From Escherichia coli (lineage in GTDB: Bacteria > Pseudomonadota > Gammaproteobacteria > Enterobacterales > Enterobacteriaceae): a stretch of 64,000 bases of DNA. The stretch's first letter is position 1; each line of letters starts with the position of its first letter. Made by a program: the position numbers. The stretch lies in NCBI RefSeq assembly GCF_050920415.1, contig NZ_CP169309.1, one strand, 5' to 3'. This document shows positions 15,001 through 18,000 of the stretch, one piece after another.

Positions 15001-18000
15001 TCATTCTTGATTGTGTATAGATCCCTGGCAGTGGTTAGAGCACGGGAGGGACAAACGGTTTGCGTCGCAGGAAACGACCTCGCCCGGCTTTACCTGTAAA
15101 GGTGCCGTCACAGAAAATCGTTTCACCACGGGATAATGTTCTGACAATTGCGCCCTGACAGGTAAAACCCTCCCAGGGCGAGTAGTCGGCGTTGTCGTGG
15201 AGATGGCGGTGTTGAATTTGTTGACTCTGACGTGGGTCGATAATTACCACATCACCATCTGAGCCGGGCGCTAATAATCCTTTTTGTGGCCACAGGCCAA
15301 ATAGCCTGGCGGGCATCGCACTGGTCAATTCAACAAAACGCTCCGGTGTGATACGTCCCGTCATCACGCCACTGGAGAACAGCAACTGCATGCGGTTTTC
15401 CACACCGGGCAAGCCATTTGGGCAGCGGCTGAAATCGCCTTTAGAAATTTGCTGGCGCTGGGCCATCGAGAAGGTGCAGTGATCGGTCGCCACCACGTCA
15501 ATCGCACCATCACTAATGCCACACCACAGTTTGTCCTGCTCACGCACGTTACGCAGTGGTGGGCTAAGAATGAACTTCATGCCGTCTTCTGTATCGTAAC
15601 TGCGTTCGTCCAGCAGGAGATATTGCGGGCAGGTTTCAACCCAGACTGACTGGTGATTCGCGCGGGCAAGACGCAGATAATCCAGACCTAAGCCGTTAGA
15701 GAGGTGGACGATATAGAGCGGGGCGTTACCGGCAATTTGTGCCAGGTTAATCATGCGGGCGATGGCTTCCGCTTCGCATTCCAGAGGGCGGCTCAAGGCG
15801 TGATAGCGCGGCGCGGTTAACCCTGCGGCGATAAACTCCGCCCGCTTGCTGGCGATAGCTGCATCATTTTCCGGGTGCACGGTGGTCAGCGCGCCGGACT
15901 CATGCAAGCGGCGTAACGCCTGCAAAACCTCGTCATCGTTGAGTTTGTATTGATAGGTTAAATAGAGTTTAAAACTGCTCAGTCCTTCTTCGACCATCAT
16001 CGGAATTTCGTCGAGGATGGCGTGATTAATGTGCTGGATCACACCGTGAAAGCTGTAGTCGATGACCGCCTTATGGGCGGCATAGCCACGATAAACTTCC
16101 AGTTGATGGCGTAACCGGCAGCCATTCGGGCCAAATCCCATATGGTCAATAATGGTTGTTGTACCGCCACACGCAGCTGCGCGGGTACCGGTAAAAAAAT
16201 CATCACAACTGCGCGCGATGCCGACATCAATATTGAAATGCGTATGGACATCCACGCCGCCAGGGAAAACGTAACAGCCAGTGGCATCAATTTCTTCATA
16301 CGGGAGCTGCGGCGAAATATTGCTGCCCAATTGGCGAACAATCCCGCTCTCAATCAGCAAATCTTGTTTGGCTTGTCCATCTGCGTTAACGACAGTGCCG
16401 TTTTTGATCAATACGCGCATAGCAAACTCCAAAAACCCTCCGGCGAACCGGAGGGGAATAAGTGAAGAGTAATTATTCGGTTGCCAGCCAGCTTAACGGG
16501 ATTGCAGCGTACATCGCGGCACAGGTCACCAGGTGAGATTTCCAGGTTTTTTCGTTAGGTGCATGCGCTTCAGGTTCTTTACCCGGGCCAAAGCCGATCA
16601 CCGGAATGCCGTGACGACCCATGATAGATACGCCGTTAGTTGAGAAGGTCCACTTATCAACAACCGGCGCTTTGCCAAACAGCCCTTCGTAGGCGTTCAC
16701 CAGGGCTTTAACAGTGAAGTGATCTTCTTCCACTTTCCAGGTCGGGAAGTAGCATTCGGTTGGGTAAACCAGGCCAGTCCAGGAAGGACGGTCGTAGTTG
16801 TACATAGAAACAACCGCGTTAGCTTTCTGTACCGCAGGCAGGGCGCGGATTTCGTCCAGCGCGCCTTCCCAGGTTTCGCCCCAGGTCAGACGACGGTCAA
16901 TTGAAACTGCGCAGCTGTCTGCTACAGCGCAACGGCTTGGAGATGTGAAGAAGATTTCAGAAACGGTGAGGGTGCCTTTGCCGAGGAATTCGTCATAGCC
17001 CAGGCGCTGGGAGAGTTCCTGCAATTCGCCAAGAATCGGACCCATTTTGAAAATGGCGTTATCACCGCGTTCTGGCGCAGAGCCGTGGCAGCTAACGCCC
17101 TGAACATCAATGCGAATTTCCATACGACCGCGTTGACCACGATATACCTGGCAGTCGGTTGGTTCGGTACTGACCACAAATTCCGGGCGAATGCCAGATT
17201 GTTCAATAATGTACTGCCAGCACAGACCGTCGCAGTCTTCTTCCTGCACAGTGCCGGTGACCAGCAGGGTGTATTCATCTTCCAGACCGAGGTCTTTAAT
17301 GATTTTACCGGCATAAACCATAGAGGCCATGCCGCCTTCCTGGTCGGAAGTACCGCGGCCACCGATCAGTTCATCAGTTTCCATGCCTTCGTACGGATCG
17401 AAGTCCCAGTTTTTGATGTTGCCAATGCCGACGGTATCAATATGAGCGTCCATTGCCACCAGACGCGGGCCGTGGCCGATATAACCGAGAACGTTGCCCA
17501 TCGGGTCGATTTCAACTTTATCGAAGCCGACTTTTTCCATCTCTTCTTTAATACGATGTACTACGCGTTTTTCATCGCAGCTTTCACTGGGAATAGCAAC
17601 CATATCGCGCAGAAAGCGAGTCATGTCTGCCTGGTAATCTTTTGCTTTTTCAAGAATCAGTTTGAATGGAATATTCTTAGCCATTATTTTTCTCCAGATT
17701 TTTTACTCCCCGTTTTGCGGGGAGCAGTTCCAATAGGGTGATTAAGGTGCTACAGAGTGTTTGCCTTCCCAGACAACTTCGCGGTAGTGCTTCACGTCGG
17801 TGTCGCCTTCAGTGCTGATAACCAGCACCACTGCATCTTTGTTCAGCGCCAGTTTTTCCATCAGGCTTTGACGTTGCGGGTGATAATGAACCGCCGCGAG
17901 AACGCCTAAACCGACAGCGCCGGATTCACCGGAGATGATGCGCGGGTCGTTGCCGTACGGATTACCCAGCACGCGCATACCTAATGCGGCAACGCTGTCC

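What the first reader, a model, noticed from the sequence alone, without database searches (positions are those of the whole stretch)
16431..16455. Strong hairpin plus U-tract inside the ygeW-ygeX-ygeY-hyuA-yqeA gene string
Between ygeY and hyuA the transcribed strand forms CCCTCCGG-ttcg-CCGGAGGG followed by UUUUU, a canonical intrinsic terminator, yet the hyuA RBS and start follow within 15 nt. This suggests attenuation or differential expression of the carbamoyltransferase/ammonia-lyase/peptidase genes versus the hydantoinase/carbamate kinase genes.
Basis: seen in the sequence. Interest (0 to 1): 0.3.

Follow-up and report, generated by a model that had tools for sequence, protein, structure and literature searches.

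The report
Conserved RNA hairpin between ygeY and hyuA
A strong RNA hairpin plus five U's lies between two genes of the E. coli urate-degradation operon; compensatory mutations preserve the hairpin in over 20 genera but not the U-run, so it is probably an ordinary intra-operon expression valve.

Summary
On the minus strand, CCCTCCGG-TTCG-CCGGAGGG (16455-16436, about -16 kcal/mol) is followed by UUUUU, the hyuA Shine-Dalgarno GGAG and the ATG, 17 nt after the ygeY stop. It is not chance. The 58-nt spacer is single-copy and identical in 4206 of 4997 E. coli genomes. A GC-rich stem-loop occupies the same position in more than 20 genera, with different stem sequences (7 of 9 pairs compensatory, 91.7% paired). 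The U-run is not conserved: only 10 of 54 distinct orthologous hairpins have at least 4 leading U's, and the Klebsiella/Kluyvera/Raoultella group has UCU-GGAG. Conserved hairpins also follow ygeW and, less consistently, ygeX; none precedes yqeA. A sigma-54 promoter motif is conserved upstream of ygeW (70/70 loci) and absent upstream of hyuA (0/75), so hyuA-yqeA presumably depend on read-through. The best reading is an intercistronic mRNA stem-loop that lowers hyuA-yqeA transcript relative to ygeWXY. In E. coli it would act as a leaky intrinsic terminator and probably everywhere as a barrier to 3' exonucleases. No transcript-mapping data for this junction were found. This is a new member of a known kind, of modest interest.

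The parts
16436..16455 (-). Stem-loop CCCUCCGG-UUCG-CCGGAGGG (8 bp, 7 G-C, tetraloop), the conserved core of the element
   Evidence: -16.6 kcal/mol. Stem invariant in Escherichia, with variation only in the loop and 5' flank. Covariation across genera.
16431..16435 (-). U-run (UUUUU) directly after the stem; terminator-like in E. coli but not conserved in most other genera
   Evidence: Leading U-run of at least 4 in 10 of 54 distinct orthologous hairpins.
16427..16430 (-). hyuA Shine-Dalgarno GGAG, 5 nt after the stem and 6 nt before the ATG; left unpaired
   Evidence: Flank pairing to the SD is no better than shuffles.
16456..16472 (-). 17-nt pyrimidine-rich single-stranded spacer between the ygeY stop and the stem; long enough for the hairpin to fold behind a terminating ribosome; possible endonuclease entry site (inferred)
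   Evidence: Distance from stop has a median of 14 nt across 54 hairpins.
16473..17684 (-). ygeY CDS (upstream cistron)
15035..16420 (-). hyuA CDS (downstream cistron; ATG at 16420)
14055..14987 (-). yqeA/arcC CDS, joined to hyuA by a spacer without a hairpin (47 nt in E. coli, 12 nt in many genera)
18968..18989 (-). Sister hairpin after ygeW (GGGCCGAUC-gaca-GGUCGGCUC), conserved with compensatory changes
   Evidence: 8 pairs, 4 compensatory
17704..17726 (-). Sister hairpin after ygeX (UGCUCCCCG-caaaa-CGGGGAGUA), followed by an A-rich tract, not U's
14023..14048 (-). Terminal hairpin after yqeA (GGCCGGGUGGGUAAUACCAUCCGGCC + AUUUUCAUUU), the likely operon-end terminator
20278..20293 (-). Sigma-54-type -24/-12 motif TGGCAC-N5-TTGTT upstream of ygeW; the only such motif for the five-gene string
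   Evidence: Conserved in 70 of 70 loci. Absent upstream of hyuA in 75 of 75 loci. Divergent ygeV encodes a sigma-54 activator.

Best explanation
The element is a conserved intercistronic mRNA stem-loop at the 3' end of the ygeY cistron. It makes the ygeW-ygeX-ygeY part of the sigma-54-driven transcript more abundant than the hyuA-yqeA part. In E. coli, the 8-bp GC stem followed directly by five U's should make a fraction of RNA polymerases terminate, acting as a leaky intrinsic terminator. The polymerases that read through supply hyuA-yqeA, whose SD and ATG start 5 and 15 nt after the stem. In all lineages, including those without a U-run, the same hairpin should block 3'-to-5' exonucleases once the downstream segment has been cut. 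This would protect the upstream segment, as described for malE-malF and menBCE. Shown here: the structure, its position, its selection as a sense-strand RNA helix, the non-conservation of the U-run, the series of similar hairpins after ygeW and ygeX, and the lack of a second sigma-54 motif. Inferred: that termination or decay protection actually occurs, and its size.
For: The structure is real and stable.

Within E. coli the 58-nt spacer is single-copy and identical in 4206 of 4997 genomes, although only 240 of 5164 genomes are at least 99% identical over the surrounding 301 nt. The Escherichia variants sampled change the loop or the 5' flank, never the stem.

Across 61 loci with a short spacer, every one has a hairpin of -8 kcal/mol or better. 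The median is -20.6 against -10.9 for shuffles. Stem sequences differ between genera.

On a sequence-only MAFFT alignment, RNAalifold finds 7 of 8 pairs with compensatory changes. On the covariance-model alignment, 91.7% of cells are paired, 7 of 9 pairs have double changes, there are 50 double-change cells against 14.2 +/- 2.7 in shuffles (0/500), and slid controls give 43-62% paired.

The sense strand folds better than the antisense strand (36 against 21 spacers, p = 0.002).

Hairpins also follow ygeW (covarying) and ygeX, but not hyuA. This resembles the consecutive protective hairpins described for menBCE (PMC5927463).

Where hyuA follows ygeX directly, as in Serratia marcescens, Symbiopectobacterium and Rhodoferax/Comamonadaceae, the spacer is 5-29 nt with no hairpin. 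The hairpin therefore goes with the ygeY 3' end rather than with hyuA's start.

The sigma-54 motif is conserved upstream of ygeW in 70 of 70 loci and absent upstream of hyuA in 0 of 75. No sigma-70-like site lies in ygeY on the minus strand. hyuA is listed with ygeW, ygeX and ygeY in the YgeV iModulon, and the five genes are treated as one operon whose deletion abolishes anaerobic growth on urate.

The first three U's, which are the part of the U-tract most conserved in strong terminators (PMC7445774), are present in E. coli.
Against: There is no experimental 3'-end, half-life or coverage data for this junction.

The U-run is only 5 nt, followed by GGAG, so termination could be negligible. Most orthologues have 1-3 U's, so termination cannot be the conserved function.

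In the compact Enterobacteriaceae spacers the hairpin is also only 1-6 nt from the SD, so a translation-related role cannot be excluded.

The comparison with hairpins after yqeA (the operon end) did not separate the two classes by U content (mean 3.6 against 3.7 U in 8 nt).

The loci are phylogenetically related, so the shuffle statistics overstate independence.
Confidence: 0.55

Rival explanations
1. The hairpin serves hyuA rather than ygeY. After an endonucleolytic cut in the 17-nt upstream spacer it would become a 5'-terminal stem-loop that protects hyuA-yqeA mRNA from RNase E, as in papBA. Alternatively it acts as a local 'insulator' that keeps the adjacent SD unpaired and sets hyuA translation initiation.
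For: In Enterobacteriaceae the stem ends 1-6 nt before the SD and 11-17 nt before the ATG. The flanks avoid pairing with the SD (mean z = +0.48). In Escherichia sp. E1V33, E. whittamii and Klebsiella indica, insertions of about 170-200 nt lie between the ygeY stop and the SD-proximal region; in the two Escherichia loci the hairpin stays intact next to the hyuA SD, whereas in K. indica it is degenerate (-5.2 kcal/mol). The papBA-type mechanism is documented (PMC5927463).
Against: The distance to the ATG is not conserved outside Enterobacteriaceae (up to 35-45 nt in Hafnia and Aeromonas). Where hyuA follows ygeX directly there is no hairpin and the spacer is 5-29 nt. The ygeW hairpin sits 5-9 nt after the stop and 28-44 nt before the next ATG, so it is placed relative to the stop.
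Confidence: 0.2
2. It is an efficient terminator that ends a ygeWXY operon, and hyuA-yqeA are transcribed from their own promoter.
For: In E. coli the site ranks among the strongest terminator-like sites in the window. In Photobacterium the same junction has a long nested hairpin plus AUUUUC, followed by a further spacer of about 200 nt that could hold a promoter.
Against: Only 15 nt separate the stem from the hyuA ATG. No sigma-70-like site lies in ygeY on the minus strand, and no sigma-54 motif lies upstream of hyuA in 75 loci. The U-run is short and absent in most genera. hyuA groups with ygeW, ygeX and ygeY in the YgeV iModulon.
Confidence: 0.05
3. The stem-loop is a binding site for a trans-acting factor (an RNA-binding protein or sRNA) that regulates the boundary in response to a signal. 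That would make it a regulated rather than a constitutive valve.
For: The structure is strongly conserved. The Photobacterium version has conserved unpaired sequences (loop CGCUCUGCCUUA, bulge CUCAUAUCC) beyond what a terminator needs. The E. coli 3' arm and the SD both carry GGA motifs.
Against: Stem and loop sequences are not conserved between genera; only the pairing is. The GGA motif in the arm is absent in Klebsiella oxytoca, Edwardsiella and Morganella. There are no Rfam matches and no competing alternative structure.
Confidence: 0.1
4. It is a neutral or DNA-level palindrome (a chance inverted repeat, a REP-like repeat or a protein operator) with no RNA function.
For: GC-rich inverted repeats with T-runs also occur inside coding regions of this window.
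Against: Compensatory changes keep the pairing while the sequence turns over, which argues against both an operator and chance. G-U pairs and better folding of the sense strand point to RNA. The element is single-copy per genome and has no REP consensus. The stem is invariant within Escherichia.
Confidence: 0.05

Closest known systems
Intra-operon partial intrinsic terminators (attenuators) such as the rplL-rpoB intercistronic terminator of E. coli (from general knowledge, not tested here)
   Same: A GC hairpin plus U-run between two cistrons of one transcription unit. Read-through is needed for the downstream genes, and the outcome is a lower downstream transcript level.
   Different: The U-run here is only 5 nt and abuts the next SD. 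It is not conserved among orthologues. No termination has been measured.
Protective intercistronic 3' hairpins in differential operon decay: malE-malF and the consecutive hairpins of menBCE (Dar & Sorek 2018, PMC5927463)
   Same: Stable stem-loops at cistron boundaries, evolutionarily conserved, with several per operon producing a graded pattern. No U-tract is needed. This matches the hairpins after ygeW, ygeX and ygeY.
   Different: That study reports that most protective structures lie inside coding regions, whereas these are intergenic. Decay and 3' ends have not been measured for this operon, and the malE-malF element is a REP repeat whereas this is single-copy.
papBA-type 5' protective hairpin downstream of an RNase E site (described in PMC5927463)
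   Same: A hairpin in an intercistronic region just upstream of the stabilised downstream cistron.
   Different: No cleavage site has been mapped. The hairpin is absent where hyuA follows ygeX. The operon has no obvious reason to favour the distal genes.
Canonical Rho-independent terminator at an operon end
   Same: A GC-rich 8-bp stem, a tetraloop and an immediately following U-run, located 17 nt after a stop codon.
   Different: It is followed within 15 nt by a start codon of the same operon. It has 5 U's rather than 7-9. No A-tract precedes it, and the U-run is lost in most orthologues.

Membership tests
Intrinsic (Rho-independent) terminator | GC-rich stem-loop (stem about 5-14 bp, loop 3-8 nt) | tested here: met
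   8 bp, 7 G-C, UUCG loop, -16.6 kcal/mol
Intrinsic (Rho-independent) terminator | 7-9 nt U-tract immediately after the stem, with the first three U's the most important (PMC7445774) | tested here: inconclusive
   UUUUU then GGAGUUU. The first three U's are present but the tract is short.
Intrinsic (Rho-independent) terminator | U-tract retained in orthologous elements if termination is the selected function | tested here: not met
   Leading U-run of at least 4 in 10 of 54 distinct orthologous hairpins, and at least 5 U in the next 8 nt in 12 of 54. UCU-GGAG in Kluyvera/Raoultella, UGUU-GAGG in Klebsiella.
Intrinsic (Rho-independent) terminator | RNA 3' ends in the U-tract in vivo or in vitro | not testable with these tools
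   No entries for ygeY or hyuA in the Term-seq supplements that could be read
Protective intercistronic hairpin (differential operon decay) | Stable local stem-loop at a cistron boundary on the mRNA strand | tested here: met
Protective intercistronic hairpin (differential operon decay) | Structure conserved among related species | tested here: met
   (7 of 9 pairs compensatory; more than 20 genera)
Protective intercistronic hairpin (differential operon decay) | Processed 3' ends at the hairpin base and a longer half-life for the upstream segment | not testable with these tools
   Needs Term-seq and rifampicin decay under inducing conditions
REP/BIME repeat element | Multi-copy dispersed palindromic repeat with the REP consensus | tested here: not met
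   One place per genome in 4997 genomes. The sequence is unrelated to the REP-like GGCCGGAUG...CAUCCGGCC hairpin after yqeA.
Riboswitch / leader-type attenuator with alternative structures | Match to a known RNA family, or a competing antiterminator/anti-SD helix | tested here: not met
   No Rfam hits at E <= 1 in the window region or at gathering threshold in 13 loci. Context folding is not exceptional (z = -1.5). Flank-SD pairing is no better than shuffles.

The most novel reading that the evidence does not exclude
The ygeY|hyuA junction may be a conserved, evolutionarily tunable and possibly regulated control point of the anaerobic urate pathway. On this reading the stem-loop is a platform whose read-through is set by a factor or by U-run length, from the simple E. 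coli hairpin+U5 to the 75-nt nested Photobacterium structure with conserved unpaired nucleotides. Read-through would then balance hydantoin ring-opening and ATP-yielding carbamate kinase (HyuA, YqeA) against the ureido- and diaminopropionate-processing enzymes (YgeW, YgeX, YgeY). This would be a new cis-regulatory RNA class rather than a passive hairpin.
Probability: 0.1. Interest if true: 0.55.

Novelty: new member of a known kind. Interest (0 to 1): 0.3.

Why it matters
The ygeW-ygeX-ygeY-hyuA-yqeA genes encode the lower part of the recently solved anaerobic uric-acid (2,8-dioxopurine) pathway of gut bacteria. E. coli Nissle has already been engineered for urate lowering by placing strong promoters upstream of ygeW. 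If the junction hairpins act as valves, that design would over-express ygeWXY relative to hyuA-yqeA, and editing the stem or the U-run would be a simple way to rebalance flux. More generally, this is a clean, covariation-supported example of a series of intergenic hairpins shaping a sigma-54 operon. It also shows that a terminator-like look in one species can be a lineage-specific elaboration of a conserved U-less hairpin.

Tried and rejected
1. Anti-SD clamp idea. MFE folds suggested that the 5' spacer (ACUCU) pairs with the hyuA SD around the hairpin, which would give structure-based translational coupling. Duplex energies between the flanks are no better than shuffles (mean z = +0.48; 1 of 41 below -1). 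Rejected.

2. Known RNA family. There are no Rfam hits in the window region or in 13 orthologous loci.

3. Experimental 3' ends. The supplements of Adams 2021 and Dar 2018 (PLoS Genet) contain no ygeW/X/Y/hyuA/yqeA entries. The other Term-seq papers have no supplements held as text. The pathway papers give no per-gene RNA-seq values.

4. Control against operon-end hairpins after yqeA. U content did not separate the two classes (3.6 against 3.7), because the best hairpin downstream of yqeA is often not a terminator and the downstream context differs between species. Inconclusive.

5. Internal promoter for hyuA. No sigma-70-like site in ygeY and no sigma-54 motif. A weak unrecognised promoter cannot be excluded.

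6. REP repeat or operator. Rejected on copy number and covariation.

7. CsrA-type GGA pair (3' arm plus SD). Not conserved in Klebsiella, Edwardsiella or Morganella.

8. RNase III site. The stems of 8-12 bp are shorter than the roughly two helical turns that enzyme usually needs (general knowledge).

9. In-frame TTG at 16432 as an alternative hyuA start. It lies 3 nt after the sequestered GGAGGG, and RefSeq uses the ATG at 16420. Unlikely.

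Full report
**What is there.** The window is E. coli chromosome and is 100% identical to strain N3 over the query. On the minus strand lie ygeW (20183/20187-18996), ygeX/dpaL (18938-17742), ygeY (17684-16473), hyuA (16420-15035) and yqeA/arcC (14987-14055). The sigma-54 activator gene ygeV is divergent from them. The 52-nt ygeY-hyuA spacer reads UAA-UUACUCUUCACUUAUUC-CCCUCCGG-UUCG-CCGGAGGG-UUUUU-GGAG-UUUGCU-AUG. The hairpin folds at -16.6 kcal/mol (z = -2.73) and is kept in the MFE and centroid of a 101-nt context.

**Is it more than chance?** The tool's lax terminator pattern is not enriched in the region (18 against 16.0 expected). A strict definition gives 5 distinct sites in 64 kb against 0.5 in dinucleotide shuffles. 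At this site's strength there are 2 against 0.025. The other four strict matches fall inside coding sequences (xdhA antisense, araE twice, lysR antisense). The motif alone therefore proves little. The case rests on conservation.

**Conservation within E. coli.** The locus is present in 5164 of 5426 complete genomes. The 58-nt stop-to-start segment is single-copy and identical in 4206 of 4997 genomes. Only 240 of 5164 genomes are at least 99% identical over the surrounding 301 nt. The variants I sampled change the loop (UUCG to UUCA to UUUA) or the 5' flank, and never the stem. Other Escherichia species have UUUUCU or UUUUUU after the stem. MG1655 has no annotated feature at this position.

**Conservation across genera.**
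- A scan of one genome per species with HyuA returned 80 loci. The order ygeW-ygeX-ygeY-hyuA-yqeA holds in Enterobacterales, Aeromonas and Photobacterium; two Betaproteobacteria loci have ygeW-ygeY-hyuA without ygeX.
- Every one of 61 loci with a spacer of 150 nt or less has a hairpin of -8 kcal/mol or better. The median is -20.6 against -10.9 for shuffles.
- The stems are 8-12 bp and differ between genera. Examples are Kluyvera CUCCCGUCG/CGGCGGGAG, Klebsiella oxytoca UGCCGCCGC/GCGGCGGUA, Trabulsiella GCCUCCCGCCA/UGGCGGGAGGC and Morganella GCCCCGCAC/GUGCGGGGC.
- On a sequence-only MAFFT alignment, RNAalifold recovers the helix with 7 of 8 pairs showing compensatory changes.
- On a covariance-model alignment of 41 sequences, 91.7% of cells pair and 7 of 9 pairs have double changes. 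There are 50 double-change cells against 14.2 +/- 2.7 in shuffles (0/500). Sliding the partner drops pairing to 43-62%.
- The sense strand folds better than the antisense strand (36 against 21 spacers, p = 0.002).
- Together this points to selection on an mRNA helix, not on a DNA operator or a repeat.

**The U-run is not conserved.** Among 54 distinct junction hairpins, a leading U-run of at least 4 occurs in 10, and at least 5 U's in the next 8 nt in 12. Escherichia, Hafnia, Morganella, Enterobacillus and some Serratia look terminator-like (UUUUU(U) before the SD). Kluyvera, Raoultella, Klebsiella, Enterobacter-like genera, Yokenella, Trabulsiella and Mixta have 0-3 pyrimidines and then the SD. 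By the usual definition a terminator has a GC hairpin plus a 7-9 nt poly(U), with the first three U's the most conserved (PMC7445774). On that definition the E. coli element is a marginal to moderate terminator and most orthologues are not terminators.

**Operon context.**
- Similar hairpins follow ygeW. They start 5-9 nt after the stop, and 4 of 8 pairs are compensatory.
- Hairpins follow ygeX less consistently.
- The hyuA-yqeA spacer has no hairpin and is only 12 nt in many genera.
- Other short spacers of the same purine cluster also carry hairpins (ssnA-ygfM, yqeC-yqeB). The AT-rich ETT2 operons in the window carry none.
- A sigma-54-type motif TGGCA(C/T)-N5-TTG(T/A) lies 80-125 nt upstream of ygeW in nearly all of the 70 loci where it is found (70/70; two outliers at about -224 and -249), at window 20293-20278. 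No such motif lies upstream of hyuA in 75 loci, and no sigma-70-like site lies in ygeY on the minus strand.
- hyuA is listed with ygeW, ygeX and ygeY in the YgeV iModulon. The five genes are treated as one operon that is essential for anaerobic growth on urate.
- hyuA-yqeA expression therefore presumably requires read-through of the hairpin.

**Mechanism.**
- The best-supported reading is a boundary stem-loop that reduces the downstream transcript relative to the upstream one.
- In E. coli the stem abutting UUUUU should cause partial termination.
- In all lineages the stem can serve as a 3'-exonuclease barrier after endonucleolytic inactivation of the distal segment. This is the mechanism documented for malE-malF and for the consecutive hairpins of menBCE (PMC5927463).
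- The 17-nt gap from the stop codon lets the stem form behind a terminating ribosome (inference).
- The hairpin tracks the ygeY 3' end rather than the hyuA 5' end. Where hyuA follows ygeX directly, the spacer is 5-29 nt and has no hairpin.
- The main rival is a hyuA-proximal role, either as a papBA-like 5' protector or as an RBS insulator. It is supported by the 1-6 nt stem-to-SD spacing in Enterobacteriaceae and by insertions that leave the stem next to the SD in two Escherichia loci. It is weakened and by the variable stem-to-ATG distance elsewhere.
- A structure-based translational-coupling model was tested and rejected.
- No riboswitch-like alternative fold or Rfam family was found.

**Comparison with known systems and novelty.** The element works like known intra-operon attenuators and protective hairpins. 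It fails one membership criterion for a canonical terminator, namely a conserved U-tract of full length. It meets the testable criteria for a protective intercistronic hairpin. I found no publication or dataset describing it. It is therefore a new, well-supported member of a known kind.

**Why it matters.** Its practical relevance is to engineering of the urate pathway. Interest is modest at 0.3.

**Residual novel reading.** The junction may be a regulated or tunable control point. This is suggested by the elaborate conserved Photobacterium structure at the same junction. I put this at about 10%.

Noticed in passing
L061:4743-4833, L073:4754-4844, L074, L075, L079, L080, L082 (Photobacterium ygeY-hyuA spacer): The same junction carries a roughly 75-nt nested structure: a 13-bp outer stem and a 7-bp inner stem, with a conserved loop CGCUCUGCCUUA and bulge CUCAUAUCC, followed by AUUUUC. 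Six pairs are compensatory and there is no Rfam match. About 200 nt of further spacer follow, with a second long hairpin. It may be an uncharacterised structured RNA or an elaborate terminator.
   Followed up: partly
window 20278-20293 (-); 70 loci: The sigma-54-type promoter motif upstream of ygeW is conserved in 70 of 70 loci. Its -12 element is TTGT/TTGA rather than the textbook TTGC (TGGCAC-ACTTA-TTGTT in E. coli).
   Followed up: partly
L003:~4775-4950, L052:~4785-4950, L049 spacer (3 copies): A repeat element containing CCCTCTCCCC-ttc-GGGGAGAGGGTTAGGGTGAGGGG is inserted between the ygeY stop and the hairpin. It is present in Escherichia sp. E1V33 and E. whittamii, and in three tandem-like copies in Serratia oryzae. 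In the two Escherichia loci the hairpin next to the hyuA SD is left intact. The element was not identified.
   Followed up: no
window 6089-6138 (-), ssnA-ygfM spacer: Another strong intercistronic hairpin, ACCCUCUUCCC-gca-GGGAAGAGGGU (11 bp, -19.4 kcal/mol), with no U-run. A weaker one lies between yqeC and yqeB (12342-12388, +). The whole purine cluster seems to use about 50-nt spacers with hairpins.
   Followed up: partly
window 60617-60634 (+), 61243-61264 (+), 62962-62988 (+), 25845-25865 (+): Strict hairpin+T-run matches lie inside coding regions: two on the sense strand within araE, one antisense within lysR (12 bp, REP-like GGGCCGGAUG...CAUCCGGCCC) and one antisense within xdhA. Their function, if any, is unknown.
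   Followed up: no
window 14013-14022 versus L001 (K-12) downstream of yqeA: The hairpin after yqeA is followed by AUUUUCAUUU in the window strain but by AAAGAUUGUC in K-12. The operon-end terminator therefore has a U-tract in one lineage and not in the other.
   Followed up: no
window 23846-26142 (-): xdhA is annotated as frameshifted (pseudogene) in strain N3, which matched the 301-nt query at 100% identity.
   Followed up: no
window ~18939-18960 (-), ygeX ribosome-binding region: The ygeX leader has two closely spaced GGA motifs (AAAAGGAUAGGAUAUG in E. coli, GAAGGAUAAGGACAGA in most other genera) that are highly conserved. This could be a CsrA-type site or simply a strong SD.
   Followed up: no
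window 16432 (-): The ORF finder starts hyuA at an in-frame TTG 12 nt upstream of the annotated ATG, inside the U-run. Given its spacing to any SD, it is unlikely to be used.
   Followed up: partly
E. coli genome hit H10 (NZ_CP148401.1) and counts: About 260 of 5426 E. coli genomes lack the junction. In at least one, ygeY abuts guaD, which indicates a deletion inside the purine cluster. One genome carries the locus on a record typed as a plasmid.
   Followed up: no
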